A stretch of DNA of 64,000 nt from Candidatus Enterousia sp. GTDB lineage: Bacteria; Pseudomonadota; Alphaproteobacteria; Rs-D84. The notes beneath the pieces were generated by a model that saw only the letters and a list, made by a program, of their open reading frames with translations, did no database searches and was not told the DNA's origin. Numbering within the stretch: position 1 is the stretch's first letter; each line of letters starts with the position of its first letter. The DNA is taken from positions 2,280-66,279 of the forward strand of contig JAZRPS010000018.1 of assembly GCA_045649345.1 (NCBI GenBank). The letters run 5' to 3'. The translations under genes and the position numbers were made by a program. Positions 1-51,714 of this stretch are shown here, one piece after another.

Positions 1-282
1 CTCGTGATGTTTCAAACAGTCTTTTTTACCCTGATCATCACAAACATCATATAACTTTACACCGGGTGGGAATGTACCAAGATCGCCCGTTGTTAACAAC
101 GCACCATCCCTATATGTTTCTTGATTGAGCTCATTCTGTTTTTTTCGCTCCTTCTCTCGTATCGCCTTGTGTGTTGCATATGGATCGTATTCTGAATTCA
201 TATAAAAAACCGCATATGAACACGTTGTGTTTAGTACACACAACGCAAACACGCCACAAAACAACAATCGCTTTAATAACAT
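1..282 (-). CDS. hypothetical exported/lipoprotein-like protein, N-terminal 94 codons only (gene continues past window start)
   Basis: ATG at 282..280 lies inside the end of the upstream gene (..A TGT TAT TAA). The frame is open to position 1. N-terminus MLLKRLLFCGVFALCVLNTTCSYA looks like a signal peptide. Confidence 0.5.
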   Translation of the reverse strand, partial: MLLKRLLFCGVFALCVLNTTCSYAVFYMNSEYDPYATHKAIREKERKKQNELNQETYRDGALLTTGDLGTFPPGVKLYDVCDDQGKKDCLKHHE

Positions 283-1271
283 ATCGGATGACCTTTTAAT
301 TTATCAACATCTGCCAAACCGTTCAACAGGGGACGATTAACCAATTCTTTTATCATATCTGCGTCTGGACCATTATCATTTGCGAATTCTGCACGCTTTT
401 TCTCAATCAACTTATTGCAATCATTAATCATTTTTTCCAATTGGGTATCTAACTGGGATAAAATTTGTTCGCGACGCGCCAAAATTTCTTCACTGCTTTC
501 CTTTGGTCCGTTTTTATTAATCGCAATATTGGCAATGGCACTGCCAACCGCGCCAACCACCGCCATGGTGGTTCCTGTCTTTTTGTCTTTGGCGGTTTCT
601 TCTTTCTGTGCCGTCCATTCTTTGGCATCTTCGCTGCTTTCATCTGTTAATGCGCGCGACAGGGATGTATATGCGCCATCCGTCTTGCCCAGGGCAATAT
701 CGTCATATAACCCGGTCGTTGCACTGTCCAATATCTCTTCACTTTCAATGTCTGGTTGTAATCCCAAGGCTTCCTTTCGTATCTTTAAATCCGCCGCTAA
801 TTTTATATATTCTGTTTTTAGTGTCATTAATTCATTGCCACCGGGTAATTCGACTTCCTTTTCGCCACCCTGAACATTCTTGCCCGGTGCATAATTACAG
901 TGCATTGTTGCCAGATACGCCGCCATGTCCAGTTCTGCGGCTTCGTCCGCCCGTTGTTCTGCGCCGGCGGATAACGCCTGACTTAAACCCGCGCCCGTTA
1001 ATCCCATGCCAGCCGCACCCAACAGTTTATTTTCCATCGATTGTTCTTTGTCACGCATCTTTTGTGCGTTGTCTTCCAATTCGGCTAAATTACCATCCAA
1101 TGCGGCTTTTAATTTTGTCACTTCTTCACATGATTTACGATAACTAGACCCTTCATAATGGTCGCACCAGTGAAACATAGTTATGATATCATATTTGTTG
1201 TTTAAATCTTTAATTTGCGCCTCAGAAAGCCCGGAATTCTGCGGATTTAGCCCCCCCCAGCAACGTCGCAA
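273..1271 (-). CDS. hypothetical exported coiled-coil / Ala-Gly-rich protein; body ORF is out of frame with its own signal-peptide leader
   Basis: 332-codon ORF with no ATG or RBS at its 5' end. The track start is a TTG inside the leader. An in-frame fusion to the leader needs G9 or G6 instead of G8 at 1251..1258. Confidence 0.6.
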   Translation of the reverse strand: MRRCWGGLNPQNSGLSEAQIKDLNNKYDIITMFHWCDHYEGSSYRKSCEEVTKLKAALDGNLAELEDNAQKMRDKEQSMENKLLGAAGMGLTGAGLSQALSAGAEQRADEAAELDMAAYLATMHCNYAPGKNVQGGEKEVELPGGNELMTLKTEYIKLAADLKIRKEALGLQPDIESEEILDSATTGLYDDIALGKTDGAYTSLSRALTDESSEDAKEWTAQKEETAKDKKTGTTMAVVGAVGSAIANIAINKNGPKESSEEILARREQILSQLDTQLEKMINDCNKLIEKKRAEFANDNGPDADMIKELVNRPLLNGLADVDKLKGHPICY

Positions 1272-1324
1272 AACGCGTTAAGCGAGGCAAAAAACGCTAA
1301 TAAAGACAATAAAAATATCCTCAT
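1247..1324 (-). other. orphan signal-peptide leader ORF MRIFLLSLLAFFASLNAFCDVAGGG-stop, belonging to the 273..1271 gene
   Basis: ATG at 1324, a hydrophobic signal-like peptide, then the G8 tract followed at once by TAA (1249..1247). It is offset by one frame from the downstream body ORF. Confidence 0.55.
1251..1258. repeat. C8 (G8 on coding strand) homopolymer at the leader/body junction
   Basis: Read directly: gatttag-cccccccc-agcaacg. It is the longest G/C homopolymer I found in the window. Confidence 0.95.
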
Positions 1325-1379
1325 CTCATCGACAAGGATACAAAAAATACTTATCACTATGCAAGTGTTTTTCTATATA

Positions 1380-2474
1380 CTATCGCTGTTTGCTTTGCAA
1401 TTTTGTGATAATATTCTGTAAAGAATCGCGTTTTGCCACCAACGGATTTAACACAGGTGCATATTCTGCATCAATGCTATCTTTGATTGTTTTTAGACGT
1501 TGTGCTTCTTTGGCATTGCGAACCAAGATTGGACGTATCGCTATAAATTCAGGCAATGTAAAATTCAACAAACCAATCATATCAAGCTGTTGATTCAACA
1601 ATTCTGCTTCTGGTGTTGACGTACGATTTTGTTCATCAAAATCGACCATTATACGTGGTTTTTCTGGGTCGTCATCGGTTGCAATATAATACTTATCAAA
1701 AATTCGCTGCATTTTATCTTTTTGATCTGACATATCAACACGTGCCTTATAACGCTGTTTTCCTTTTATATCACCGCTATCAACACCCCAACGCAAGGCA
1801 TCATATTTTTTCTTTAATGGCATATATTCCGCATTAAATTTACGTTCTGTATCTACGTACATATTCGTATGTGCTTCAATAACATCTAATTCAAGCGCAA
1901 GTTTCATCAATTCAGACAATTTTTGTTTAACTTTTGGATCCAAAAATTCTATTGAACCAAATTCTAGCGCATTTTTCTTAAATGGCGTTGAAAATTTTTT
2001 TGTTTTGTTTTCATCAAAGTTTTCTACGCGCCACAAATAATACATCGGTGTGTTGCCATCTATTTTCAAATCCAATTTCTGTGCAAATTCAGCAGTTGAT
2101 AAAAAATATTGTTTGGTCTGCAGGAAATCAAATGATGCAATTTGTTTGATTTCTTCGTCTGTAAAATAATCTTTCAGTTTGTGATTCTTATAAATACGAT
2201 TAATATACCCTGTCATCGCTCCAAAAACCAAATCATTAGAACTTTTTTTCAAATTTTCTAAGTCATTAAATAATGACAAAGTATCTTTGGACGCAGCCTT
2301 GCGTACTTTATAATCGCGTATTGCGGTCACATTTTCAATTTTATCGTTCACAGAATTTAATTGTTCTGTTGCTTTATTAATTTTACCTTGATTACTTAAA
2401 CAAGAAGTTAACGCCATTGCAACTGCAATAGGTAACAAAGTCTTTGATTTTACGTTACTTAAAATACGGTTCAT
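1380..2474 (-). CDS. hypothetical lipoprotein
   Basis: 364-aa ORF. N-terminus ..LLPIAVAMALTSC has a lipobox-like LTSC. No recognisable domain. Confidence 0.75.
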   Translation of the reverse strand: MNRILSNVKSKTLLPIAVAMALTSCLSNQGKINKATEQLNSVNDKIENVTAIRDYKVRKAASKDTLSLFNDLENLKKSSNDLVFGAMTGYINRIYKNHKLKDYFTDEEIKQIASFDFLQTKQYFLSTAEFAQKLDLKIDGNTPMYYLWRVENFDENKTKKFSTPFKKNALEFGSIEFLDPKVKQKLSELMKLALELDVIEAHTNMYVDTERKFNAEYMPLKKKYDALRWGVDSGDIKGKQRYKARVDMSDQKDKMQRIFDKYYIATDDDPEKPRIMVDFDEQNRTSTPEAELLNQQLDMIGLLNFTLPEFIAIRPILVRNAKEAQRLKTIKDSIDAEYAPVLNPLVAKRDSLQNIITKLQSKQR

Positions 2475-10372: not shown

Positions 10373-10822
10373 ATGAAATTTATGAATCAAGCCCTTGTTT
10401 TAGCAAAACGCGCGTTCGCCCACGATGACGTACCGATTGGTGCGGTAATTATACGTGACGGCAAAATCATTGCCCGTGGTGAAAACCAAGTGCAAATAAA
10501 AAACAACCCGACATTACATGCAGAAATCGTGGCTATTAATCATGCATGCAAAAAATTAGGTGTCAAATTCTTGGACGACTGTGACATTTATGTCACGCTG
10601 GAACCATGCGCAATGTGCGCGACCGCTATTTCATTGGCACGAATAAAGAATGTTTACTTCGCCGCAACCGATGAAAAGGGCGGTGGCATAACATCAAATG
10701 CACGCATTTATGACACAGACAAACACCTATGGAAGCCCTGCGTTCATCAGGTTCCTGAATATGCCGACGAATCGGCGCAACTGTTGCGTGACTTTTTTGC
10801 CTTGCGTCGTAAAAAGAAATAA
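10373..10822 (+). CDS. tadA: tRNA-specific adenosine deaminase
   Basis: CDA zinc motifs HAE and PCAMC. About 149 aa. Confidence 0.9.
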   Translation: MKFMNQALVLAKRAFAHDDVPIGAVIIRDGKIIARGENQVQIKNNPTLHAEIVAINHACKKLGVKFLDDCDIYVTLEPCAMCATAISLARIKNVYFAATDEKGGGITSNARIYDTDKHLWKPCVHQVPEYADESAQLLRDFFALRRKKK

Positions 10823-10848
10823 AAAAACCGCCAAAAGGGCGGTTTAAA
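10821..10848. terminator. bidirectional terminator between tadA and gpmI
   Basis: aaaccgcc-aaaag-ggcggttt with a flanking A-run. Confidence 0.75.
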
Positions 10849-10849
10849 T

Positions 10850-12322
10850 TTATATCAATGATTTACCTGTCATATCTGCTGGCTGATTAATACCTAATAA
10901 TTTAAGCATTGTTGGCGCAATATCTGCCAAACCGCCGTCTTTTACCGCCGGCGCATCTTTCGCAACCACGATAAAGTTCACAGGATTTGTCGTATGCGCT
11001 GTCCATGGCAGATTATTTTTATCATCCCACAATTTTTCTGCATTACCATGATCTGCGGTTATTAAGATTGTCCCCCCCAGTTCCAGCACCGCCGGAACCA
11101 ATCGTGCCAACTGTGCATCCAGCGTTTCCATTGCATGAACACACGCATCAATATTTCCAGTATGCCCAACCATATCGCCATTTGCATAATTCAAAATAAC
11201 AACATCAAATTCGCCCAGGATTGGCAATAATGCATCTGTTATTTCAATTGCAGACATTTCCGGTTTCATATCAAACGTGGCAACTGCCGGCGAATCAATC
11301 AAAACCTTTTTTCCGCCGTCAAAGTCAACATTCCTTTCAGCATCAAAAAAATATGTCACATGATTATATTTTTCTGTTTCCGCAATACGCAACTGTGAAA
11401 AACCATGTTTTGCCAACACATCACCCAGTGTGTTTTCAACAGCAACATCTGGCAACAACGCAGGACACAGTTCATTTAAACCTTCGCCATATTGCGAAAA
11501 ACACAATACATGCGCGCCTGTTTTCAATATTGCACGCATAATTTGACGCGCACGATCACTGCGATAATTTCCAAACAAGAAACCATCTTTTTCGGATATT
11601 GCGACATCACCATCGATAACAGTTGGCTTTATAAATTCATCTGTTTCGCCACGTGCATACGCATCACACAACGCATCATCAATTGTCTTGGCATGATATT
11701 GTGCCTGGGCGCGCGCGATTGCATTATATGCCAACTCTGTCCTATCCAGGTTTTGATTCCTGTCCATCGCATAATAACGCCCCGACAACGTGCCAAAGAA
11801 CGCACGCCCATCCGCCAATTCGTCCGCCAAACGTTCTTTTATTAAATTAACATACATCGGCGCCGACTGGGGCAGGGTATCACGCCCATCCGCGATAAAA
11901 TGAATACAAACACGCAGACCTGCATTAATAATACGCTTTGCCATAAACAAGACATCATTAATATCTGCATGCACACGTCCGTCTGACATCAATCCTGCGA
12001 CATGAACAATTCCACCGTCATTTCGCACAGTTTCAATAAATTCACGCAGGGCAGGGTTATTGTCCCAATTTTCAACCTCAAACCGGCGCAAGAACTGATT
12101 CACCACACGCCCGGCACCCATTGTGATATGTCCAACCTCTGAATTTCCCATTGTGCCATCTGGCAAACCAACCGCCACACCACTGGCATCCAGTTTTGAA
12201 TGCGGATATTTTTCCAACAACTCATTAAAGTACGGCATTTTTGCCCGTGTGACCGCATTAAATTCGGACTTTTCATCAATTCCGACGCCATCCATAATAC
12301 ATAAAACTAATGGTTTTTTCAT
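10850..12322 (-). CDS. gpmI: 2,3-bisphosphoglycerate-independent phosphoglycerate mutase
   Basis: N-terminus PLVLCIMDGVG, plus NSEVGH and TADHGNAE motifs. 490 aa. Confidence 0.93.
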   Translation of the reverse strand: MKKPLVLCIMDGVGIDEKSEFNAVTRAKMPYFNELLEKYPHSKLDASGVAVGLPDGTMGNSEVGHITMGAGRVVNQFLRRFEVENWDNNPALREFIETVRNDGGIVHVAGLMSDGRVHADINDVLFMAKRIINAGLRVCIHFIADGRDTLPQSAPMYVNLIKERLADELADGRAFFGTLSGRYYAMDRNQNLDRTELAYNAIARAQAQYHAKTIDDALCDAYARGETDEFIKPTVIDGDVAISEKDGFLFGNYRSDRARQIMRAILKTGAHVLCFSQYGEGLNELCPALLPDVAVENTLGDVLAKHGFSQLRIAETEKYNHVTYFFDAERNVDFDGGKKVLIDSPAVATFDMKPEMSAIEITDALLPILGEFDVVILNYANGDMVGHTGNIDACVHAMETLDAQLARLVPAVLELGGTILITADHGNAEKLWDDKNNLPWTAHTTNPVNFIVVAKDAPAVKDGGLADIAPTMLKLLGINQPADMTGKSLI

Positions 12323-14415: not shown

Positions 14416-16851
14416 TTATTCCGGCTTTACATAACATACGCCATTTTCATAATACCCATTTCCCATTAACTTACAACGCTGTTCAAACCATGCTTCTTTG
14501 AACGTACATTCATCACGTGACAGGTCATATGATGCAACATTCATATTCTTGTCACCTTCTTCGTTATAATTCAAACAATGTATCATCGTGCTATTTTCAA
14601 CACACTTTCCATATGACATGTTATTTGTATTTCCACCATAAACATTGTTATAAAACGCTGTTAATGTTTTCAATTTCCCATCTTTATTATTAAATTCAGG
14701 ATGTTCAACCGGTATCCAGTAACCATCAATCGCCTCACACTCTTCGCCCAGCATATAATCCACCTGTTCTTCGACATCACGAATTGAATTTTCAACCGTT
14801 AATCTAACCTGTTGTGGCAAAGAAGCATACCCCTGTGATTCCTGTGTCGGATCAGAACAATTCTTTACCGCAAAATCTTTCACATTTGACCATAGCGATG
14901 CATTATACGATGCATCAGCCGTATGTTCTTCATTCCCAACTGTTTTCAAAAGACAATTCCATGGATATCCCTTGTCCCCGGTCGCAGGTGTACACAAATC
15001 CGTCACATATTTTTCAACCGCGGCTGCACACCCCTCTGCCACACGGGTATTGTCAACGGAATCAACAAAATCTAACAATGCCTCCAGACCGCAACGTTTA
15101 CCAGCACTGCTTTTCTGTAATTTTCCATTCCCATCAAACGAACAGCCATCTGTATCGCCATACAACGCCGCACACGCCGTCACTTTTTCCTGACACATCG
15201 CTTTGGCTGCATATGCAGATAACGCACCTGCATTTTTCGCCGTTGTTGTATCAAAATCTTTTAATGCACTTGATTGCGTATCATAACATTGCGCCATTGT
15301 ACTAACACAAGTTGTTTTTACTTCTTCTATTTTTTCATCTTGCGCTTGGGCAATTTCTATCAATGCGCTACGCTTAAATTCCGTCCATACGACATCCGCA
15401 ATACCGCGACATGAATCCAATGCGGACGTCGCAAACATACGTTTTTCGTCCAAAAACTGACTAAACTTTGGATTTTGAGCCAACAAATCAGTACTTGCAT
15501 CTGCGCCACCCAACACAATTAAATTTTCCAGTTCAAATAGACGCTGGGAATAAATTGGTTCGCCGGTTGTTGAATTTATATACGCACCGCTGTAATCCAA
15601 ACAACGGTTATAATTCGGTCCACACGCCACATCTGTTGTCAAAGCGGCCTTTACCTTGGTAATACATTCATTAACATCCGCAGAATTATGCGCACGATAT
15701 TCTTCTAGGCGCGCCTCTCTCAAAAACTTTTCTGCCTGACGAACCGTGGTCAATACAGCTTCGCGCTGTTTATTAATTTTCTTTTCATACGCATTACAAT
15801 CCTGGGTAATCATTATATTATATGCACTGGTTGCCATATTTAAGACCGCGCTATTTTCACATGCATCACCAACCAATTGCAAACACTGTTTATTTGAAAT
15901 ATTATACAGGTCTATACCCTCCATAACACTCATATCAACACCGGTATCTGCATCAAATATCGAACTGCCTGAATCGCCACCCCAAATATCATCCACATCA
16001 GCTGAAAAATCCACGGACATCAAACCAGACAACCTATTATTTTGTTGTTGTGGTTGCGTTGCTTTCTTCTTTCCTGACAACAAGTCCCCAATTTCATTCA
16101 GAATATTTTGCGCGCCACTGGTATCTTTTTTAATTGCTTGTTCACCAATTGTGGCACTGTACATTGCCTCAACCTCTGCTACGGTTTTATCAACAGCATT
16201 TAAATTATTATCCTCAAACTGCTGCAACAATACTTTTGCTTGATCCAAGGCTTCTTCTGTATCACGAAATTCTGTGAACCTTGCACTGCAAAAGCATCTG
16301 CGATACGTATCGTTCGCATTTGCACAGAATTGATCCATACATGTCGCATACGATTCGCGACACTGGGCATAACCACCGCCAATTTTTGAAACATCTGTAA
16401 ACACCGCTGTTGCACGTGCAACACGCGCCATACCGGCATTTGAAACATTTGTTGCACTGCGCGCGCGCCCCCCGGTCACCGGTGCAACCGCACTGCGTGC
16501 CACAGACGCATTTGTCTTAACGACGGCACCACTGCGCGCACCAGACACTTTTGCACCAGAACGCGCAACAGAATTCTGACGAACGGCACCACGCGCAACA
16601 GGCGCACTAACAACATTACTTGCACTGCGCGCACCAGACACATTTGCCCCAGAACGACCAACCAAGCCACGTGAAATATTTTGTCCCCCAATCACAGAAC
16701 GTTTTGATACACGCCCCTCTGCACGCGCAACCGTTGGTACAGAAACAGCACTACGCGGATTTGGCGCCTGATCTGCATACACAAAGCCACCGACAAAAAA
16801 CGTCGCAAAAAGCGCAGAAAACTTAAAAAAAACACAACCAAAACGTTTCAC
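14416..16851 (-). CDS. large secreted protein: Arg/Ser/Ala/Gly low-complexity N-region plus cysteine-rich helical body
   Basis: GTG start and signal-like MKRFGCVFFKFSALFATFFVGGFVYA. Repeated ARSGA.VSGARS units. Many paired Cys residues (CRESYATCMDQFC..). 811 aa. Confidence 0.8.
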   Translation of the reverse strand: MKRFGCVFFKFSALFATFFVGGFVYADQAPNPRSAVSVPTVARAEGRVSKRSVIGGQNISRGLVGRSGANVSGARSASNVVSAPVARGAVRQNSVARSGAKVSGARSGAVVKTNASVARSAVAPVTGGRARSATNVSNAGMARVARATAVFTDVSKIGGGYAQCRESYATCMDQFCANANDTYRRCFCSARFTEFRDTEEALDQAKVLLQQFEDNNLNAVDKTVAEVEAMYSATIGEQAIKKDTSGAQNILNEIGDLLSGKKKATQPQQQNNRLSGLMSVDFSADVDDIWGGDSGSSIFDADTGVDMSVMEGIDLYNISNKQCLQLVGDACENSAVLNMATSAYNIMITQDCNAYEKKINKQREAVLTTVRQAEKFLREARLEEYRAHNSADVNECITKVKAALTTDVACGPNYNRCLDYSGAYINSTTGEPIYSQRLFELENLIVLGGADASTDLLAQNPKFSQFLDEKRMFATSALDSCRGIADVVWTEFKRSALIEIAQAQDEKIEEVKTTCVSTMAQCYDTQSSALKDFDTTTAKNAGALSAYAAKAMCQEKVTACAALYGDTDGCSFDGNGKLQKSSAGKRCGLEALLDFVDSVDNTRVAEGCAAAVEKYVTDLCTPATGDKGYPWNCLLKTVGNEEHTADASYNASLWSNVKDFAVKNCSDPTQESQGYASLPQQVRLTVENSIRDVEEQVDYMLGEECEAIDGYWIPVEHPEFNNKDGKLKTLTAFYNNVYGGNTNNMSYGKCVENSTMIHCLNYNEEGDKNMNVASYDLSRDECTFKEAWFEQRCKLMGNGYYENGVCYVKPE

Positions 16852-24813: not shown

Positions 24814-27800
24814 TTATTCAACGGCATAATATTTAGTTCCGCCAACATTCACACGCAACGAACCGCTTGGTGCGTTTCCTGTATCTTGTTCCAAACGCCC
24901 ATAACAAGCCGTCTGACCACCATCCAAGCTGACCCCAATTGCACGCGCCCAACCGGCACCCTTGGATGAATACAGCGGTATCGACAGACCTGTGCTGGAC
25001 TTAATATAATTCATACCCGGCACAGTACACATCTGACCACACATTGGATTGCCATTTGCATCAACGGTCTGATTATACCCATCATTACATTCCCATGGGC
25101 AGTCAAGCCCCCCATTCCAACCAACCGTTGTATAAACCGCATTTTCTGGTGCGTTTGTACACGCCGGACACGTCGTTGTTTTGCCATAATATACAATACT
25201 TGCTTCCCAATATGTACCTGCGGCACATTGTTTCTGTTCCTCCGAATACGGTGTATCAATATAATAACCTTCCTCTAACACACCATAACACTCGCTTTCG
25301 TCATCTGCCCCCCTATAAGATCCTGAATAGAAACCATTTTCTGTCAGTGCCGCGCAACTATAAAACCCACCATTCGAACCATAATTAACATTGACTCCAC
25401 CTGGGCAATAAGCCCCCCCTGGGCACGCCTCTGGATACTCTGTAGAGTATACAGCCTCGCCCGGTTTTGTTGTCAGATAGCACTGCGTTGCTTGCGATGA
25501 ACCGACCGGACTATACGGATAATATCCTGTTTCCTCTTGTACAATCAACGATGAACAACTGTTTATCCCCATTTCTTCCAAATATTCACCAGACGAACAC
25601 TTTGGTATCAGGGAATTACTTGCATACCCTGGGCAATACGAACCCTCTGGACACTGAACCGCAGTACGATAATACATATAAGTACCACCATTCTTGCAAT
25701 ACCAATCAGAATACCGTGTCTTGAAATAGAACCCTGGATTCAGTGTTGCATAATACTGATCACCACCTATATCATAATCACCAGTATTTTCATTAAAACG
25801 TACACTTTCGATATTTGTATCACCTGCTGCATTCGTTATAAAATACTGTGCACGACATAAACCGATACTACCAAGCCCCTTGGTCCATAACTGTTGCTTA
25901 AAGTCACGAACATTTATCATATTCGCATTATCTGGCGCATGACCATCTTGCCACACCGGATACCAAGACGCAGGAAATGTTGTCATTCTGGTATCATCAT
26001 TCGCCGCAGGACAGGCATTGTTTCCTCCAGTTGCCCCCCAATAAATATCCGTCGCAGGACAATAATAACCACCTGGACACGTCACCGGTGCTGCATTTGG
26101 TTCTGCCACATATGTACCGGCCGTTGTTGTCAGATAGCACTGATTTTGTGCCGTTGCACGTGCCGGCGACGCACCATAGTTTGTCGGACATATTTCCATA
26201 CCAAATGTCGACGTATGCACCGTTGCCTGATTTGACGAATCACATGCCACCTTGTCTTTACCTGGGCAATACTGACCAGATTCACATTCGTTCAGCACAT
26301 GATAATACGCATACGCACCACATGCCACCGGACTGCTTAGATAATAACCTGGTTGTACACTCATATACCCCCACGCAGTTGTATTACTATATTCGCCGTT
26401 TTCTTCATCACCAACATACATTGCGTATTCATACAATGATGCCTTACCACCTTGGTCAACTGGCTTTGCCGTATACCAGCTTAGCACCTGGCAACCGGTA
26501 ATATCACCAACAAGCGTACGACTTGTCACACTTGTATTCGTCAATTCTTCCAACATATCCAGTGTCACTGTTGGCATAATCAAGTTGCTGTTTGTTGATG
26601 TAAACTGTGTCGTACGTCTATGCGTCCGGGCATCAGGACATGCCTTTCGTATACCGGTTTGTGCGGTACAATAATATCCACCATCACATCCTGCTTGCCC
26701 TGTACACGCAACGCCATCAGTACATTCTGCACCATTTTTGGTTGTATAATAACCCCAACTTACTGTATTACACGATGTTTGTGCGGTTAAATCCTGATAC
26801 TTATCTTGCCCACTGCATGCGATATATTCATACCCCAGCACATCCACAGACGTCTCACCATAACCAACCGAATGTGATGTTGGCTGATAATACCCCGGAT
26901 CTGTTGCGACATATTGTGTTGCGCCGGATTCTGCGACGTAATACCCACCTGGAACATCCATTAAACACTGACGAACAAGTTCTTTACCCAGTGCTGTATT
27001 ATCTAAATATGGATCTGGACACGGATAATTACCCCCATGTTCTGGCTGTTCATCAGAGCCACCATCAGAAACGAACGTATAAATCTTTTCATCACCTGGA
27101 CAGTAATCATCCGCTGGACACGGTGCGGCACCGGTGCCTTGCGCCGCCACATATTCGCCCGGTTTTAGTGTCACATAACACAGCCCCCATTCACTATTAC
27201 CAGGTGCCGATTCTGGATATTTCGGAGAACAATATTCAAACCCACCGGTCATATCCGAACCGCTTTGTTTACCATAATAGACCGTCGTCCCACCGATACA
27301 AAACTGCCCAGCCTGACACATAACCTGACCTGCGCCCTGTTCATAGACAGCATAACCACCAGACGTATTCAAATAACACAAATCCTTGCTTTCTGCGCCG
27401 ACATCAGAATAAACATACTTACCATTCGTACCCCATGCACATGTCGCCGCCCCCAAATCATCGCCATATGTAAACGATGTATAACCAAACTGTGTCCGCA
27501 CAGAATCTGCTGCACCACACTTCGGCATTGATTTCAATCCTGGGCAATAACTATTTTGTGGGCATTTTTCTGCAAATTGATAGTACATTCCATTTGCATT
27601 ACCGGTTGTGCAATATGTCGCAGTATACGGCGTATGTAAATAATACCCCGGATTTAATTGCGCATAATACGGTATCAAAGCCCTATCATCAGTATACTGT
27701 TCACTGTCGCTGTCATAATAAATACCTTCCAGCAGCATTGTACCCGCGTCATTTTGAATCGTATACGTCACACGACATTGATTAATTGATTGCAAATTCT

Positions 27801-30800
27801 TGCTCCATGTATTTAGCGTCACAACACTAACAACCGATGTATTCTTTCGTTCATCTGGCAACTTGGCAGAATCCACCCAATCAACGTTTTCCCGGGGGGC
27901 ATAGTTTTCATCTGCTGGATCTGGGCAAGCTTCCCGCCCACAATCCATGGTGGCACTAAAACTGCACGTTGCACCCGGACAGTACGAACCACCCGCCCCA
28001 CATTCTGCCGGCGTTAACGACCCAGCTGGCAGATAAGAACCCGCCGGAACCGTCACTGATACAGGCACGCATTTTTGTGTGGCATTTGTAATGGTTGCGG
28101 CACCATCTGACACCTGATACCCATAATTACATGTACAGTGCGTCTGATCCGCCGACGTGGTTGAATTCACCGGACATGTATAATACCCCAAATATTTATT
28201 TGTAACGCACCAAGTAATTGGATCGTTTTCTTTAGCCACTTCATCAATGGTCACAGTATACCCTGGACAAAAATAAGACATATCACCACCGGCGCAAGAC
28301 CCCACCGTATTAACAAAAGTGAAATCACACCCATCAATACTATCCCCCGGTTGCAATTTGAATGCACATTGACCGCGCGAACTGATTGCGCTTTGTGCAT
28401 CAACAAAGGAATCAGGACACTCTTCAACACCTGTCAAACCTGGACCTTGATATTTTATTTTGTCCCCGCCCGGGCAATAATAAGCTCCCACATCCATACC
28501 ATACAAGATTGCATCTCGCATTATTATTTCACTATCACATGCATCAACTGTCACAGATCCATTTGCCTGATCAACTGATACGGCATAACCTGGGGACAGA
28601 TTGATATAACACACATTTTCATCTTCCAACCCCATTGTATTGTCAGACGTGGCGCCTGGATCTGATGTAAAGTGTTCAGGACATGAATAAATCCCCCCGT
28701 CCTTAGATTCATTATATGTGACATTTTGAACCCCCGGACAATAAGAACCCGCTAGGCATATATCACATGTCGTCTTACCCATTGGCAAATATGTCCCAGC
28801 CTCGCAAGAGAACTTTTTCGCCGTGCGACATGCATATAATTTTTCCGGAACAGAATCACCGTCGTAAAAATAATAATCTGTCCCTGGGGTATACGTTGCA
28901 CGTTCGCAACCCGTATCTGTCCCCCATTGATTCGTAAAGTTATAAATAGAACTGGACAAAGATGTCGTTGCTGGGAACTTATTATCGCCCATGTCATAAT
29001 ACACCCTTTGTACCGCAGAATCCGTACCAGAAACACCATTAATCGTACCAGAACCGCCGTTTTTATCCAACACAATCTGGGCATAACAAGCGCCTTGACT
29101 GCCCGGTTCAGAATACACGAACCGATCCGACCCCAGGTCATCAGCACAGGTCATGGCAGAGGAAAGCACGACCTTTTGGGCGCCATAATAAAATCTGTCT
29201 GAGTAAAACGAATAATTCGCCGGCGATAAATCTGTGGTCAATCCAGCCACCCCATCATCAGTATAACCTAAGAAAATCAATCTGTATCCTGAATATGATT
29301 CGACATAACACTGTGTTTTTTGACTTGATGTATTGCTGGCACTGCCGATATTGAGGTGCGATTTATCTGTGGTGGTTTCAAAAGTAAACCAGTCAGAACA
29401 AGAATGGCGTCCAAAATCACCACCTGCGGTTGTACCACCGCCACCCGGGCAGTAATAGCCATAACCACACTTGTTATTACATGTTGTTTCGCCCTTTTTG
29501 GCATAGTATCCCGGCGCACATGTCACACCGTTTTCAATCCATTGCGCTGTAAACTCTATGGCATACGGGGATTCACACCCACCACCAACAATTGACACAT
29601 CGTCGCCCGGTTGAAAAACATTCCCCAGATACCCACCATCACAATCATCGCCGGTATTCATCCAACCTGCAAAGACATAGCCCGCTTTTGAACAAGATAT
29701 TTCCGGCAATATACACTCACCACTGTTTGCATAACATTCCATGGTCGGCAATTCACACCCCGAAACGCCGATATTAAAATCGACGGTCATATCAACACCC
29801 TTTTTTACCGCGTACAGGCGTGCCGGACAGCCTTCGTCACCAACCTTTATTGATGTCATCTGGTTCGGCACCTTTGCCAACGAATACGCTGAGTGTGGCA
29901 TCGGCTTGTCCGGCGACCAATAACCGGTAAAGGTCGCGTTTTCTGCACTCAATGTCGATGCCCGGGGCAGGGTAATTGTCACACCATAATTCAGTTTCCT
30001 TGTTGCGTTGTTGGTACCCGTCGCACCAAAAATCGTACCACTTAATCCATTTTTATCCAATACCGTCGTACAATAACATGATGATAGCGTACTGGCAGTG
30101 ATATCACTGGTAAAACCAGCTGGGCATTCTGTCGCGGTCGCACTGACTTGGCCATAATAAATCTTTTCATCGGCGCCATAGCCCCCCTCTGGATATTCAC
30201 CACCGGGACAATATGAACCCACCGGACAATCTTCGGGTTCTGCATATGGCGTCAAAACCGTAAATCCAGGAACCGCCAAACCAAAACATTGTTCGGGTTT
30301 TGACGCGCCCACGCCATCAGTGCCATAGTAAAAGCCAGCTGTGTTTGGCAAATAAACACATCTTGTACTTGGCAATGCGTCTGTATACGTTTCTCCATCT
30401 GTACAGGACATATTGCCCGTGTGATTGCAATAATAGTTGATGGGGCATTTTTGTACAGCCTTGTAATACCGCTGACCACCATAGCAAACACCATTGTTCG
30501 CCGGGGTTGTCAGCTGATACCCCGGGGTCACATAATAATATGCCCACGCAGAATCAGACGCACTGGTTTCTTCATATTTACCAGTTTCTTCGTTATAAGT
30601 CACATATTCATACAACCCGGCTGGCGCGCCATTCGGTTTCCAGAAAAATAACGCCTGGCAACCTGTTACGGCACTTTGTCCCGTACGTTGTGATAAACTG
30701 GAACTGCCCAATATCACGTTTGACAGACTAATCGTCACACCGGTTGAATTATTTGCGTTATACGCAGCTGGAAACGCCGCCGTACGAACCGCACTTTTCG

Positions 30801-32004
30801 GGTCTGGACATTCTTCTTTCTGCCCACCAGTACAATAATAACCACCATCGCATATCGTCTGACCGGTACATCTGGTACCATTATTGGTACATGTTGTACC
30901 ACCCGTCGCGTAATACCCACTTGACGTATTTGAACACGCCGATGCACCAGCCGCCGAATATTTATAACCCGTACATTCATACATTCCGCTATTCGCATTT
31001 GGATTATGGCCATACGTTCCTCCCGGGCAACGATACCCGGCAACACATGTTGCACATGTTGTTGCACCACGTGGCAAATACGTCCCAGCCGAACAAGGGT
31101 ATGACTTTGCCGACCAACACGCATACAGTGTTGTATCTGCATACACGCGTGGATCGTTCGCATAGTATCCATTCGCATTAATTATCTGCGTACCACTGCA
31201 CCCAGGACTTTTATAATAACCACCAAAATCATCCCCTGTCTTTACCGGTATTGTAATTGGGTTTGCAGACGAAACCATCTTTTTGGCATACGCCGAATCT
31301 AAATACATTCCATTACCATAGATATAGTATAAACTGGCAGTTCCCTGGGTATCACAACCCTGGCAATCCAGGCTGATTCCTGGTTTTGCCTTTATCACAG
31401 GGTATAATGTATACGACGTCGCAGTACTTATATTCGTAAATGTCACAGCCGTTGAACTAGAGCTAGAACCATAGGTAGAATTCGCCATAGTCGATGCCCA
31501 ACCACCAACTTCGTACCACTTGCTATCAAAGGTCAAACCACTGGATGCCGGCAATGTAAACGCCGTGTTATAATAAACCTGAATCGTTAAATCACCACTG
31601 GACCATGCAATTGTCCCGCCCGTCACAGGATTCAAAACATTCAGCGTGCCGGTTGCAGAACTGTTCCCACCATTATACTTACGACTGATGACAACATTAC
31701 GATAACATTGATTGCGCGCGGTTTTACCGGCACCACCCGTCGTCCAAATATTGCTGGAATTGGCGGTTGTTGAACCACTGTCACAATCATGTGGCGCAGT
31801 ATATGTTCCCCCAGGGCAATAAGAACCAACAGGACAAATCACACACGAATTTCCAACACCCGTACCACTAAGATAATAGCCGGCATTACATGACGTATAC
31901 TGCTTATACGACGGACACGTATACCCCGCACCAAACGCATCAACGACAAAAAATGAAACGAACAAAATCGCGCAAAGACGCAGAAATCCTGAAAATCTTC
32001 CCAC
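24814..32004 (-). CDS. giant (2,396 aa) cysteine-rich secreted mosaic protein, adhesin-like
   Basis: Uninterrupted ORF. GTG start preceded by agaggaag. Signal MGRFSGFLRLCAILFVSFFVVDAFGA. Recurrent CP.G.YCPGG motif, NGG...GY.F.GW repeats, and four ~130-aa internal modules. Confidence 0.9.
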   Translation of the reverse strand: MGRFSGFLRLCAILFVSFFVVDAFGAGYTCPSYKQYTSCNAGYYLSGTGVGNSCVICPVGSYCPGGTYTAPHDCDSGSTTANSSNIWTTGGAGKTARNQCYRNVVISRKYNGGNSSATGTLNVLNPVTGGTIAWSSGDLTIQVYYNTAFTLPASSGLTFDSKWYEVGGWASTMANSTYGSSSSSTAVTFTNISTATSYTLYPVIKAKPGISLDCQGCDTQGTASLYYIYGNGMYLDSAYAKKMVSSANPITIPVKTGDDFGGYYKSPGCSGTQIINANGYYANDPRVYADTTLYACWSAKSYPCSAGTYLPRGATTCATCVAGYRCPGGTYGHNPNANSGMYECTGYKYSAAGASACSNTSSGYYATGGTTCTNNGTRCTGQTICDGGYYCTGGQKEECPDPKSAVRTAAFPAAYNANNSTGVTISLSNVILGSSSLSQRTGQSAVTGCQALFFWKPNGAPAGLYEYVTYNEETGKYEETSASDSAWAYYYVTPGYQLTTPANNGVCYGGQRYYKAVQKCPINYYCNHTGNMSCTDGETYTDALPSTRCVYLPNTAGFYYGTDGVGASKPEQCFGLAVPGFTVLTPYAEPEDCPVGSYCPGGEYPEGGYGADEKIYYGQVSATATECPAGFTSDITASTLSSCYCTTVLDKNGLSGTIFGATGTNNATRKLNYGVTITLPRASTLSAENATFTGYWSPDKPMPHSAYSLAKVPNQMTSIKVGDEGCPARLYAVKKGVDMTVDFNIGVSGCELPTMECYANSGECILPEISCSKAGYVFAGWMNTGDDCDGGYLGNVFQPGDDVSIVGGGCESPYAIEFTAQWIENGVTCAPGYYAKKGETTCNNKCGYGYYCPGGGGTTAGGDFGRHSCSDWFTFETTTDKSHLNIGSASNTSSQKTQCYVESYSGYRLIFLGYTDDGVAGLTTDLSPANYSFYSDRFYYGAQKVVLSSAMTCADDLGSDRFVYSEPGSQGACYAQIVLDKNGGSGTINGVSGTDSAVQRVYYDMGDNKFPATTSLSSSIYNFTNQWGTDTGCERATYTPGTDYYFYDGDSVPEKLYACRTAKKFSCEAGTYLPMGKTTCDICLAGSYCPGVQNVTYNESKDGGIYSCPEHFTSDPGATSDNTMGLEDENVCYINLSPGYAVSVDQANGSVTVDACDSEIIMRDAILYGMDVGAYYCPGGDKIKYQGPGLTGVEECPDSFVDAQSAISSRGQCAFKLQPGDSIDGCDFTFVNTVGSCAGGDMSYFCPGYTVTIDEVAKENDPITWCVTNKYLGYYTCPVNSTTSADQTHCTCNYGYQVSDGAATITNATQKCVPVSVTVPAGSYLPAGSLTPAECGAGGSYCPGATCSFSATMDCGREACPDPADENYAPRENVDWVDSAKLPDERKNTSVVSVVTLNTWSKNLQSINQCRVTYTIQNDAGTMLLEGIYYDSDSEQYTDDRALIPYYAQLNPGYYLHTPYTATYCTTGNANGMYYQFAEKCPQNSYCPGLKSMPKCGAADSVRTQFGYTSFTYGDDLGAATCAWGTNGKYVYSDVGAESKDLCYLNTSGGYAVYEQGAGQVMCQAGQFCIGGTTVYYGKQSGSDMTGGFEYCSPKYPESAPGNSEWGLCYVTLKPGEYVAAQGTGAAPCPADDYCPGDEKIYTFVSDGGSDEQPEHGGNYPCPDPYLDNTALGKELVRQCLMDVPGGYYVAESGATQYVATDPGYYQPTSHSVGYGETSVDVLGYEYIACSGQDKYQDLTAQTSCNTVSWGYYTTKNGAECTDGVACTGQAGCDGGYYCTAQTGIRKACPDARTHRRTTQFTSTNSNLIMPTVTLDMLEELTNTSVTSRTLVGDITGCQVLSWYTAKPVDQGGKASLYEYAMYVGDEENGEYSNTTAWGYMSVQPGYYLSSPVACGAYAYYHVLNECESGQYCPGKDKVACDSSNQATVHTSTFGMEICPTNYGASPARATAQNQCYLTTTAGTYVAEPNAAPVTCPGGYYCPATDIYWGATGGNNACPAANDDTRMTTFPASWYPVWQDGHAPDNANMINVRDFKQQLWTKGLGSIGLCRAQYFITNAAGDTNIESVRFNENTGDYDIGGDQYYATLNPGFYFKTRYSDWYCKNGGTYMYYRTAVQCPEGSYCPGYASNSLIPKCSSGEYLEEMGINSCSSLIVQEETGYYPYSPVGSSQATQCYLTTKPGEAVYSTEYPEACPGGAYCPGGVNVNYGSNGGFYSCAALTENGFYSGSYRGADDESECYGVLEEGYYIDTPYSEEQKQCAAGTYWEASIVYYGKTTTCPACTNAPENAVYTTVGWNGGLDCPWECNDGYNQTVDANGNPMCGQMCTVPGMNYIKSSTGLSIPLYSSKGAGWARAIGVSLDGGQTACYGRLEQDTGNAPSGSLRVNVGGTKYYAVE

Positions 32005-49458: not shown

Positions 49459-51693
49459 TTACATTGGTGGGAAACATTCGTCTGTCCCATCTGCACAACA
49501 CAAACCATCAACAAATGTTTCACCAGCACAGCAACCATTCATATCAGGTGCATTACCATCAGAACAAACTTCCTGTTCCACATCATCTGCATCTATCGCA
49601 CCAACAACCACTGGTTCTGAATAATCAACCACAGGCGCATCAACGACAACCGCTTCTTCAACAGTATCCACCGCATCTGTTTCATATTCTTCATCTGCGA
49701 CAAACATTTTTTCTTGTTGCGAAACATTATAAACAGGTTTCGATGCGATTATTTCTGCCACAGATTTTGTTTCAGCAGGTGCGACAACCTCGTCTGACAA
49801 GAATGGCGAATCTGATATATCTTCAACCTCATCATTAATCACCACTTCTTCTGGCGTATCTGTCACAACCGGCACCACAACAGGCTCAACATCTGGGAAT
49901 ACAGCGGCATTAATATCAACCACATCATCTGCATCTTCTTGCACCACAACAGATTCTGATGACTGCTGTTCCATCTGGGGTTGTTCCGTCGTTTCAACCA
50001 CATCTTCACCATCTGCAACAATATCAACTGTGTCTATATCTGATTTTTCTTCGGTCGCGTCATCAACAATAAACGGCGACACATCATCTGTTGCTTCCTT
50101 TTCTGGCACAACATCTTCTTTTTGCTCTTCTTCTGCCACCACTGTGCTTGGCACTTCCTCTACTGCTTCAACCTTAGCATCCAGGGCAGGGACATTCATA
50201 TCAGGGGTCGATTTTTGATAAAACCACAACGTAAACACAGACAAAATAATCAGCACCACCAACAACAAATAATACAATTTCGTCGGTTTGCGACGGGTTG
50301 CACCAACAGCTGAAACCGCCCCAGTAATTGGCGACACAGGACGCGCGTCTGGCACAGTTGGCGCGGGTTCAATTTCTGGCATCGGTGTCGGTGCCGACTC
50401 TTCAACAATTTCCTGAACTGTTGGTTCTGTATATTCAGGCACAGGCTCAACAGGGAACACAGGCTCCGAATAAACCGGTGCTTCTGTCTTTGTCACAACA
50501 GATGTCTCAGACGGGACATCTGGAATATCTGTAAATCCAGGAATATCAACCGTTGCCATTAATTCAGAATCAATATGTTCAGACTGCTGGGACGGCACAG
50601 ACGTCAACGAATTTAGCACTGGTGCCGTGTCTTCCACCGGAATACCATCAGATGCACGAACAGGCGGCGCAAACGACAGTGGCTGAACAGCACCCTTCGT
50701 TTCAATATCAATGTCATCATGTGCAACAGGCGCAGGTTTAACCTCATCACCAGACGTTGCACCAAAATCAATTGGTTTAAACGCTATATTTTCATCCAAG
50801 ATTTCTGGATCTTCATCAAATAATGGTTTTACTTCTTCATCGGCCATATCATCTGCCTTTGTTTGTATGGTTAAATCTGTAAATTGTGGTGACGACGTCA
50901 TTGGCACAGACGGATCCTTGACCACCGCAACATCTGTTGTTGCCGGCATCGCAGGCAATTCATAATCTGTACCGTCATTCATCGCCACAAAATCATCCAA
51001 CGTTTCCAAGATGTCACGCGCGACATCCGCATCTTCTTCGGCTGCAACCAATCTGCGTTGCGCACTAACCAAGCGCTTTTTAGAACGCGCCATCTTTTCA
51101 TTTATTGCATCAATTTGCGCCTCTGTCTTTAATATCTTAGACGCCGATTGTTTTGTTGGTTCTTTACCAACCTTTTTACGTTGCGCCGTTAATTTGGAAC
51201 GCAAGTCCTTTAATTTTTCCTGCTGTTCCGCAATCGTTTGCTTGGTCTTTTCGATTGTTTCGCGCGCGTTCCCGGCGGTTATTTCCGCCACCCCCAGACG
51301 TTCAAACGCGGCACGACGCGACGCATCATTTCTGAATATCTCCAACTGCTTTAACGCACCGGCAACATCTTTGTCATCATCGTATGCGCGAAACAGGTTG
51401 TCATAAACCCCCAGTCCTGTATACTCTATATCCAGTTTTTGATATTTATTGTCCTTTTTTGGACGAACACTTTCCAAATCGACATCATAATCATTGACCA
51501 GAATATCATCCCATTTGCGATTCCCAACAGGATTCGTCACCAACAAAACATTCGGTTTAGTATCGCTAGTCGCAAAATCCAAGACGCAAACCAACTTTCC
51601 ATCTGCATCATAATACGCGCGCATATAGCCGCCAGAAATATCATATTCGACAATTTTCAAAGCACCGTTAAAATTCTCTCTCTCGTTCGGCAT
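49459..51693 (-). CDS. large bitopic protein: N-terminal domain + coiled coil + TM + long acidic region + C-terminal Cys cluster
   Basis: ATG at 51693 is best spaced from the ggggag RBS. TM LYYLLLVVLIILSVFTLWFY. D/E/V-rich region. The protein ends CSDGNAPDMNGCCAGETFVDGLCCADGTDECFPPM. Confidence 0.8.
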   Translation of the reverse strand: MPNERENFNGALKIVEYDISGGYMRAYYDADGKLVCVLDFATSDTKPNVLLVTNPVGNRKWDDILVNDYDVDLESVRPKKDNKYQKLDIEYTGLGVYDNLFRAYDDDKDVAGALKQLEIFRNDASRRAAFERLGVAEITAGNARETIEKTKQTIAEQQEKLKDLRSKLTAQRKKVGKEPTKQSASKILKTEAQIDAINEKMARSKKRLVSAQRRLVAAEEDADVARDILETLDDFVAMNDGTDYELPAMPATTDVAVVKDPSVPMTSSPQFTDLTIQTKADDMADEEVKPLFDEDPEILDENIAFKPIDFGATSGDEVKPAPVAHDDIDIETKGAVQPLSFAPPVRASDGIPVEDTAPVLNSLTSVPSQQSEHIDSELMATVDIPGFTDIPDVPSETSVVTKTEAPVYSEPVFPVEPVPEYTEPTVQEIVEESAPTPMPEIEPAPTVPDARPVSPITGAVSAVGATRRKPTKLYYLLLVVLIILSVFTLWFYQKSTPDMNVPALDAKVEAVEEVPSTVVAEEEQKEDVVPEKEATDDVSPFIVDDATEEKSDIDTVDIVADGEDVVETTEQPQMEQQSSESVVVQEDADDVVDINAAVFPDVEPVVVPVVTDTPEEVVINDEVEDISDSPFLSDEVVAPAETKSVAEIIASKPVYNVSQQEKMFVADEEYETDAVDTVEEAVVVDAPVVDYSEPVVVGAIDADDVEQEVCSDGNAPDMNGCCAGETFVDGLCCADGTDECFPPM

Positions 51694-51714
51694 ACGCATA
51701 CTCCCCAATTGTTT

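What the first reader, a model, noticed from the sequence alone, without database searches (positions are those of the whole stretch)
1247..1324. G8 tract separates a signal-peptide leader from its 332-codon body: candidate phase-variable exported protein
On the minus strand, an ATG at 1324 encodes MRIFLLSLLAFFASLNAFCDVAGGG. The peptide ends in TAA (1249..1247) right after a run of eight G residues (plus-strand C8, 1251..1258). The long ORF 273..1271 continues in the next frame and has no ATG or RBS of its own near its 5' end. With G9 or G6 the product would read ...CDVAGGG-LNPQNSGLSEAQIK... as one secreted protein. As sequenced the gene is OFF. This is the longest G/C homopolymer I found in the window. 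It sits exactly where slipped-strand switches lie in contingency loci. The leader's own RBS is weak.
Basis: partly seen in the sequence, partly recalled or inferred. Interest (0 to 1): 0.65.

Follow-up and report, generated by a model that had tools for sequence, protein, structure and literature searches.

The report
Poly-G on/off switch in secreted-protein gene
A run of eight G's sits between the export signal and the body of a gene in an uncultured ruminant-gut alphaproteobacterium, and its length differs (8 to 11) between otherwise near-identical wild strains, so it very probably works as a classic slipped-strand on/off switch; the mechanism is well known, but this organism and this protein family are new for it.

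Summary
On the minus strand, a G8 tract (1258..1251) separates a 22-codon signal-peptide leader (ATG 1324) from a 325-codon body (1250..276). As sequenced the leader stops at TAA 1249..1247, and G9 would fuse the two into a 350-aa protein.

- Assemblies from other ruminant and gut metagenomes carry the same locus with G8, G9, G10 or G11, some in frame and some out of frame.
- Three samples of one strain show no contig difference over 13 kb except G10 versus G11 at this tract.
- Three independent alleles with an interrupted, non-slippery tract are all exactly 9 nt, which is in frame. One of them is on record as an intact 350-aa protein.
- The body is under purifying selection (dN/dS 0.11) between two lineages that are both OFF.
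- All of about 35 full-length homologues start with a signal peptide.

Not shown:
- Switching within a clone, because no raw reads were available.
- Export of the protein.
- Its function, because Pfam, NCBIfam, PDB and Foldseek gave no match.

Verdict: a new member of a known kind, a homopolymer contingency gene of the gonococcal pilC type. Public annotation truncates the OFF alleles to 301 aa.

The parts
1251..1258 (-). Homopolymeric G8 tract (plus-strand C8). It is the proposed slipped-strand switch and encodes Gly-Gly-Gly in the ON frame.
   Evidence: The same site is G9, G10 or G11 in other samples. It is replaced by GGGGAGGGG, GGGAAGGGG or GAGAAGGAA in three in-frame alleles.
1259..1324 (-). 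Leader of 22 codons, MRIFLLSLLAFFASLNAFCDVA. It is a signal-peptide-like N-terminus, with ATG at 1324..1322.
   Evidence: It is the most hydrophobic segment of the fused protein. It stays open in all lineages, with two frame-compensating indels in lineage B. It aligns with the signal peptides (..A-x-A|D-D) of about 35 homologues.
1247..1249 (-). TAA stop that ends the leader peptide after 25 aa in the G8 (OFF) state.
273..1250 (-). Body of the gene: 325 codons plus TAA at 275..273. It is read only when the tract is 9 (or 6 or 12) nt long. The product is a mostly helical protein of an uncharacterised family, with two Gly/Ala-rich hydrophobic segments.
   Evidence: omega 0.114 against L002; AlphaFold2, pLDDT 67. 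No family or fold match.
1335..1364 (-). Putative promoter: TTGCAT (1364..1359), 18-nt spacer, TATCCT (1340..1335). It ends 10 nt before the ATG, which would give an almost leaderless mRNA.
   Evidence: Inference. The hexamers and their spacing are kept in the window, L002 and L015 while the spacer diverges. It falls below the cut-off of the consensus scan. The ATG has no Shine-Dalgarno sequence.
1315..1341 (-). Hairpin with an 11-bp stem and loop GAUGA, followed by a U-run. Its 3' arm contains the leader's AUG. It may be the terminator of the upstream gene and/or may occlude the start codon in read-through transcripts.
   Evidence: terminator-like site. (about -17 and -21 kcal/mol, z-scores -2.4 and -4.3). 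One compensatory pair change, U-A to C-G, in L002 and L015.
1..282 (-). Start of the downstream gene (825 aa in L002). Its ATG at 282..280 overlaps the body's stop by 10 nt (ATGTTATTAA). It has its own signal-peptide-like N-terminus. It may be coupled to the switch.
   Evidence: A metatranscriptome contig runs from the body's 3' end into this gene (X41).
1380..2474 (-). Upstream gene of 364 aa with a lipoprotein-type signal (..LTSC). It is very divergent between lineages (34% aa identity to its counterpart in L002).
   Evidence: No Pfam or NCBIfam match.

Best explanation
This is a contingency (phase-variable) gene of an uncultured ruminant-gut alphaproteobacterium.

How it works. A poly-G tract lies just after the signal-peptide coding region. 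During replication it gains or loses G's by slipped-strand mispairing.
- With 9 G's (or any 9-nt equivalent), the leader and body form one 350-aa precursor. Its N-terminal signal peptide would send it across the inner membrane. The likely cleavage site is after AFC, which would leave DVAGGGLNPQ... as the mature N-terminus.
- With 8, 10 or 11 G's, translation stops after 25 to 34 residues and the body is not made.
- The window carries G8, so it is OFF.

What is shown: the frame logic; tract lengths 8 to 11 in nature, including between haplotypes with no other contig difference over 13 kb; in-frame pure-G alleles; three non-slippery alleles that are all in frame; purifying selection on the body.

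What is inferred: that switching is frequent and reversible within a clone; that the product is exported to the envelope or surface; that the OFF state also lowers expression of the overlapping downstream 825-aa gene, through loss of translational coupling or Rho polarity; and that the selective agent is host immunity or phage.
For: Frame anatomy.

Tract states by lineage:
- Lineage A (window-like): G8 in the window; G9 in X5, a contig with no other difference over 1156..1382; G10 in X1; GGGGAGGGG in X19.
- Lineage B (GCG Ala codon, so the run is one G longer at the same phase): run of 9, OFF, in X7 and X9; run of 10, ON, in X6.
- Lineage C: G10 in MAG RGIG4147 (L002), in L001/X23 and in X26; G11 in X24.
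- X33/X34: exactly +1 nt across leader, tract and body at depth 8, so ON.

Control: over 13,051 bases of L002 in four samples, the only 1-nt indel is at the tract. Between them, X23, X24 and X26 show only three base differences from L002.

Assembly breaks: contigs stop at or in the tract in X2, X3, X13/X14, X25, X28 and X29. A length-heterogeneous site in a de Bruijn graph would produce this.

Intact product: P0122 (350 aa) is encoded on L015 and L016 with GCT GAGAAGGAA CTA. X27 has GGGAAGGGG TCA. All three interrupted alleles are 9 nt.

Selection: window versus L002, body dN/dS 0.114 with dS 0.215, although both are OFF.

Homologues: about 35 full-length homologues all begin with a signal peptide.

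Precedent: a homo-G tract in the signal-peptide region of gonococcal pilC (PMC5354566), and 5' homopolymer switches in general (PMC2831843, PMC1891110).
Against: - No raw reads were available. Every length comes from low-depth (2.5-8x) Logan or ENA contigs, one consensus per sample. Within-population heterogeneity and reversibility are therefore not shown.
- Contig breaks at the tract could also come from low coverage or from poor Illumina reads through G runs.
- A G8 run is expected by chance in about 40% of such windows.
- No second G/C tract of 8 or more lies in a 5' gene end anywhere in the 64-kb window, so there is no sign here of a genome-wide 'phasome'.
- The leader has no Shine-Dalgarno sequence, and its AUG lies in a hairpin.
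- Export is predicted only from hydrophobicity and from alignment with the homologues' signal peptides. The -1 residue of the putative cleavage site (Cys) is unusual.
Confidence: 0.8

Rival explanations
1. Consensus or sequencing error. The true tract in the window's organism is G9, the gene is simply intact, and the length differences between assemblies are homopolymer artefacts.
For: Homopolymers are error-prone. No other sample was seen with the window-type GCT + G8. All depths are low. The window's reads could not be inspected.
Against: Different lengths recur in independent assemblies and pipelines (Logan contigs, an NCBI MAG, ENA scaffolds). In 13 kb across four samples, no other 1-nt indel appears, including at two G7 tracts. 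OFF lengths are seen in three lineages. Even if the window's G8 were an error, the locus would still be polymorphic in length.
Confidence: 0.07
2. Plain pseudogene. The gene was inactivated by a frameshift in a run of G's and is decaying. The tract lengths drift neutrally with no function.
For: Most pure-G alleles seen are out of frame (the window, X1, X7, X9, L002/X23/X26, X24). NCBI annotates only a 301-aa remnant (P0121, P0123).
Against: Body dN/dS is 0.114 over dS 0.215 between two OFF lineages, with no further stops or indels in 978 nt in three lineages. The leader stays open, with compensating indels. In-frame pure-G alleles exist. All three non-slippery alleles are in frame. Random slippage alone would put two thirds of lengths out of frame.
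Confidence: 0.06
3. Recoding rather than switching. The G run is a site of transcriptional slippage or ribosomal frameshifting, so a fixed 'OFF' genotype still yields some full-length protein and DNA length changes are secondary.
For: Long homopolymers can cause RNA polymerase slippage (established for A/T runs of 9 or more; my own knowledge). OFF alleles are common yet the body is conserved.
Against: No frameshift-stimulating signal is evident. G/C runs of 8-11 are poor slippage sites compared with A/T runs (my own knowledge). The DNA itself varies in length, and in-frame DNA alleles exist. The one RNA run found does not cover the tract.
Confidence: 0.05

Closest known systems
Neisseria gonorrhoeae pilC (pilC1/pilC2) phase variation
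   Same: A homo-G tract lies inside the signal-peptide coding region. Frameshifts in it switch an exported protein on and off independently of RecA (PMC5354566, citing Jonsson et al. 1991). The position and logic match this locus.
   Different: There is no sequence or fold relation: the product here matches nothing in Pfam, NCBIfam or the PDB. The organism is an uncultured gut alphaproteobacterium, not a betaproteobacterial pathogen. Switching rates are measured for pilC but not here.
Poly-G contingency genes of Campylobacter jejuni and CT-repeat outer-membrane protein genes of Helicobacter pylori (my own knowledge, not checked here)
   Same: AT-rich host-associated bacteria in which G/C tracts of 8 or more, or repeats in the 5' or signal-sequence coding region of surface-structure genes, vary in length between and within strains.
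   Different: Those genomes carry dozens of such tracts. Only one was found in this 64-kb window, and the rest of the genome could not be surveyed.
5' homopolymer switches such as Listeria monocytogenes inlA poly(A) and Bordetella pertussis homopolymeric tracts
   Same: A homopolymer near the 5' end gives a very short truncated peptide in the OFF state and reverts by single-base insertion (PMC2831843). Tract-length microevolution among near-clonal isolates is also documented (PMC1891110).
   Different: The base composition differs (poly-A in inlA). Those cases have experimental switching rates. Here the evidence is comparative only.

Membership tests
Simple-sequence-repeat (homopolymer) phase-variable / contingency locus | A mutable repeat tract, for G/C homopolymers usually 7-8 nt or more, lies in the coding region or promoter | tested here: met
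   G8 at 1258..1251(-). G9 to G11 in relatives.
Simple-sequence-repeat (homopolymer) phase-variable / contingency locus | Changes of tract length by non-multiples of 3 toggle between a full-length product and an early stop | tested here: met
   G8 gives a 25-aa peptide, G10 a 34-aa peptide, and G9 the 350-aa fusion. The fusion has the same length and N-terminus as the intact natural allele P0122.
Simple-sequence-repeat (homopolymer) phase-variable / contingency locus | Tract length is polymorphic among closely related strains while the flanks are conserved, and both ON and OFF states occur | tested here: met
   X5 versus the window: a single +1 difference. X23 versus X24: G10 versus G11 is the only contig difference between them over 13 kb. 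ON: X5, X6, X33/X34. OFF: the window, X1, X7, X9, L002, X24.
Simple-sequence-repeat (homopolymer) phase-variable / contingency locus | High-frequency, reversible switching within a clonal population | not testable with these tools
   All runs were held as contigs only and the organism is uncultured. Contig breaks at the tract in at least six samples are suggestive only.
Simple-sequence-repeat (homopolymer) phase-variable / contingency locus | The gene stays functional (purifying selection) despite frequent OFF states | tested here: met
   dN/dS 0.114. No extra stops or indels in three lineages.
Sec-exported (signal-peptide) protein | N-terminal positive residue, a hydrophobic core of 10-15 residues, and a small-residue cleavage motif | tested here: inconclusive
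   The pattern MR + IFLLSLLAFFASL + NAFC|D is present, and this is the most hydrophobic segment. It aligns with the A-x-A|DD signal peptides of homologues. No dedicated predictor was available, and Cys at -1 is atypical. The sequence is not a canonical lipobox.
PilC/PilY1 family (as a homologue) | Sequence or fold similarity to PilC/PilY1 | tested here: not met
   No Pfam, NCBIfam or PDB sequence hit and no Foldseek hit. The resemblance is in mechanism only.

The most novel reading that the evidence does not exclude
The tract may be the master switch of a whole, previously undescribed envelope or surface module of gut Alphaproteobacteria. The conserved phase-variable protein sits between a hypervariable lipoprotein gene (34% identity between lineages) and an overlapping, equally divergent 825-aa secreted-protein gene. 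The OFF state would then silence the downstream gene as well, through lost translational coupling or polarity. The allele series GAGAAGGAA, GGGAAGGGG, GGGGAGGGG, G9 may record the stepwise birth, or the loss, of a mutable tract under selection for evolvability.
Probability: 0.25. Interest if true: 0.65.

Novelty: new member of a known kind. Interest (0 to 1): 0.45.

Why it matters
Slipped-strand phase variation is documented almost entirely in cultured pathogens. This is a well-supported case in an uncultured commensal alphaproteobacterium of ruminant guts, recovered from public metagenomes alone. It makes three practical points.

- A lineage-restricted family of secreted proteins with no known function is flagged as probably exposed to host or phage selection.
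- Standard annotation mis-calls such genes. The OFF alleles are deposited as 301-aa 'hypothetical proteins' that lack their signal peptide.
- Comparing tract lengths across assemblies, with in-frame 'locked' alleles as an internal control, can find contingency genes without cultures.

The mechanism itself is textbook, so the conceptual gain is modest.

Tried and rejected
- Raw-read pile-ups, the decisive test: every run found was held only as Logan contigs, so per-read length heterogeneity could not be measured.
- Exact-pattern scan of JGI metagenome contigs for the tract plus its downstream flank: no hits.
- Protein-guided scan of the same collection: only paralogues at 41-57% identity.
- Function of the product: Pfam, NCBIfam, a PDB profile search and Foldseek on a pLDDT-67 AlphaFold2 model all gave nothing significant.
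- Neighbouring genes (lipoprotein, 825-aa protein): no family match either.
- Other copies of the module in the window: none.
- Other simple repeats in the window that could act as switches: Tandem Repeats Finder found only weak arrays of 2-5 copies, and no other G/C run of 8 or more exists.
- Paralogues in other genomes (L003-L008): none has a tract at the equivalent place.
- Looking up the contig of the window's own annotated protein, P0123: not on record.
- RNA evidence: the one metatranscriptome holds pieces of the body but not the tract.
- Lipoprotein reading of the leader: considered and set aside, because N-A-F-C does not fit the L-[AS]-[GA]-C lipobox.

Full report
**1. The observation**

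- ATG 1324..1322 opens MRIFLLSLLAFFASLNAFCDVAGGG, which ends at TAA 1249..1247.
- The eight G's occupy 1258..1251.
- The 332-codon ORF 273..1271 lies in the adjacent frame.
- One extra G (or two fewer, or four more) reads GCT GGG GGG GGG CTA AAT and gives a 350-aa protein.
- It is the only G/C run of 8 or more in the 64-kb window.
- The leader lacks the AAGGA-type ribosome-binding site that most genes of the window have. The body has no start signal of its own.

By composition alone such a run is unremarkable. Markov simulations give 0.51 runs per window. The significance therefore rests on where the tract lies and how it behaves in other samples.

**2. Organism and gene**

The window is chromosomal: it carries SecA, DnaE, DnaK and PFK. 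The closest genome is a metagenome-assembled alphaproteobacterium from roe deer colon, RGIG4147 (L002). The MAG set is described in PMC8199421. Gene order matches: PFK, a LysM protein, a lipoprotein, leader plus body, and an 825-aa protein.

The body belongs to a large family that has no Pfam, NCBIfam, PDB or Foldseek match. The family is found in uncultured gut Alphaproteobacteria.
- About 35 full-length members of roughly 350 aa all begin with a signal peptide ending ..A-x-A|D-D.
- The conserved core also occurs fused to OmpA, trypsin-like or CarboxypepD_reg domains in paralogues.
- The AlphaFold2 model (pLDDT 67) is helical, with two low-confidence Gly/Ala-rich hydrophobic segments.

A member of this family without a signal peptide would be anomalous. 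Only the leader can supply one here.

**3. The tract in other samples**

No raw reads were available, so contigs of public runs were laid on the locus. Each gives one consensus per sample.

| Lineage | Sample | Tract | State |
|---|---|---|---|
| A (window-like) | window | G8 | OFF |
| A | X5 (no other difference over 1156..1382) | G9 | ON |
| A | X1 | G10 | OFF |
| A | X19 | GGGGAGGGG | ON |
| B (Ala codon GCG, so the run is one G longer at the same phase) | X7, X9 | run of 9 | OFF |
| B | X6 | run of 10 | ON |
| C | L002 (RGIG4147) | G10 | OFF |
| C | L001/X23, X26 | G10 | OFF |
| C | X24 | G11 | OFF |
| near C | X27 | GGGAAGGGG then TCA; the contig ends 11 nt later | ON (inferred) |
| not assigned | X33/X34 | exactly +1 nt across leader, tract and body, depth 8 | ON |

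The control matters. Over 13,051 bases of L002, the contigs of X23, X24 and X26 show only three base differences from L002. The only 1-nt indel anywhere in four samples is at this tract. Two G7 tracts in the same stretch show no single-base length change.

Contigs also terminate at or inside the tract in X2, X3, X13/X14, X25, X28 and X29. A length-heterogeneous site in a de Bruijn graph would produce this. Low depth could produce it too.

**4. Intact, non-slippery alleles**

The 90% cluster of the nearest database protein has four members.
- P0122 is a 350-aa ENA protein that starts MRVFLLSLLMIFSPLGAFCDVAEKELNPQNSG.
- Two 301-aa NCBI proteins start at the internal Met of MFHWCDHY. P0123 is identical to the window. 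P0121 (MBQ8255810.1) comes from RGIG4147.

The DNA of P0122 (L015 and L016, from two samples) reads GCT GAGAAGGAA CTA. That is nine non-repetitive bases exactly where the others have G8 to G11.

Together with X19 and X27, all three interrupted alleles are 9 nt long, which is in frame. Pure-G alleles occur both in and out of frame. A dead gene would not show this pattern. A functional gene with a mutable switch would.

**5. Selection**

Between the window and L002, both OFF, the body has dN 0.024, dS 0.215 and omega 0.114. It shows no stop or indel in 978 nt.

The leader stays open in every lineage. In lineage B it stays open through two compensating single-base indels.

The body's dS is a third of that of the neighbouring LysM and PFK genes (0.65). 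The genes on either side of it are extremely divergent: the lipoprotein is 34% identical, and the N-terminus of the downstream protein is unalignable in L002. The locus therefore looks like a recombining, diversifying surface-gene region around a conserved, switchable core.

**6. Mechanism**

*Shown:* frame toggling by tract length; natural length polymorphism on near-identical backgrounds; both expression states in nature; constraint on the product.

*Inferred from the established behaviour of homopolymer tracts* (PMC2831843, PMC1891110; pilC in PMC5354566): slipped-strand mispairing at replication generates the changes reversibly and at high frequency. The population therefore always holds ON and OFF cells.

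*Further inferences, less secure:*
- **Export.** The ON product would be exported by Sec. The Gly run would lie three residues after the likely cleavage site, where its length is harmless.
- **Promoter.** A promoter-like TTGyrT-N17/18-TAyCCT ends 10 nt before the ATG. It is conserved in three lineages while its spacer is not. That would give a near-leaderless mRNA and would explain the missing ribosome-binding site.
- **Hairpin.** An 11-13-bp hairpin plus U-run includes the AUG in its 3' arm and shows one compensatory change. It may terminate the upstream gene.
- **Downstream gene.** Its ATG overlaps the body's stop by 10 nt, and an RNA contig spans the junction. The OFF state may therefore depress this gene as well.

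**7. Rivals**

- **Artefact.** This cannot be excluded for the window's own G8, but it does not explain recurrent lengths in independent assemblies with clean controls.
- **Pseudogene.** This is contradicted by omega, by the in-frame alleles and by the locked-ON alleles.
- **Recoding by slippage of RNA polymerase or the ribosome.** This is untested. It is unnecessary, given that the DNA itself varies in length.

**8. Comparison and novelty**

The closest analogue in mechanism is gonococcal pilC, with a G tract in the signal-peptide region (PMC5354566). There is no homology to it. The defining features of a contingency locus are met, except for the direct demonstration of rapid reversible switching, which these tools cannot give.

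This is a new member of a known kind, in an uncultured commensal lineage and in an uncharacterised protein family. Public annotation currently truncates the OFF alleles.

Interest is moderate. A specialist would find the case clean and useful rather than surprising.

Noticed in passing
window 1315..1341 (-); L002 5988..6014; L015 about 141..167: A conserved hairpin plus U-run whose 3' arm contains the leader's AUG. One pair changes U-A to C-G between the window and L002/L015. Lineage B shows the G-U intermediate. It may be the terminator of the upstream gene, overlapping the -10 element and start codon of the switch gene.
   Followed up: partly
window 1380..2474 (-) versus L002 4881..5954: The upstream lipoprotein gene is only 34% identical in protein between the two lineages, while the LysM protein next to it is 98% identical and PFK is 92.5%. 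It looks like a hypervariable, probably surface-exposed protein.
   Followed up: partly
window 273..1250 (-) versus flanks: The body gene's synonymous divergence to L002 (dS 0.215) is a third of that of neighbouring housekeeping genes (0.65). The blastn match at 93% covers only window 266..1348. This suggests recent exchange of this cassette between lineages.
   Followed up: partly
window 1..282 (-); L002 7045..9522; L015 1199..3118: The downstream 825-aa gene overlaps the body's stop by 10 nt (ATGTTATTAA) in all lineages. It has a signal-peptide-like N-terminus and no Pfam or NCBIfam match. Its N-terminus is alike in the window and L015 but unalignable in L002.
   Followed up: partly
proteins P0121 (MBQ8255810.1) and P0123: Public annotation of the OFF alleles starts at an internal Met (MFHWCDHY...) and gives 301-aa 'hypothetical proteins' without the signal peptide. 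This mis-call is caused by the tract.
   Followed up: yes
alleles at the tract: L015 216..224, X27, X19: The interrupted alleles form a graded series that shares its A positions: GAGAAGGAA, GGGAAGGGG, GGGGAGGGG, then pure G9. This could record stepwise gain or loss of the mutable tract.
   Followed up: no
family-wide (P0002, P0011, P0025 and others; L003-L008): The conserved core of about 200 aa (EQSxxNKLLG...YLATxxC...LPGGNEL...GIESE..LYDD) is also found fused to OmpA, CarboxypepD_reg or trypsin-like domains, and inside a 2083-aa protein (L008). It is an undescribed envelope module of gut Alphaproteobacteria.
   Followed up: partly
window 24814..32004 (-): A giant 2396-codon ORF with no Pfam match at E <= 1e-5. 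ORFs 14416..16851 (811 aa) and 49459..51708 (749 aa) are also without matches.
   Followed up: no
whole window: Strong strand asymmetry: 15,880 C against 11,443 G on the plus strand. Most long ORFs up to about 37 kb lie on the minus strand.
   Followed up: no
L002 9157..10028 and 10465..10900: Contig depth is 5-10 times higher than the surroundings in three samples, with many loose ends. These are probably repeated or widely shared elements next to the locus.
   Followed up: no
L008 1..22: The contig begins with a run of 22 C's, most likely an assembly or sequencing end artefact.
   Followed up: no
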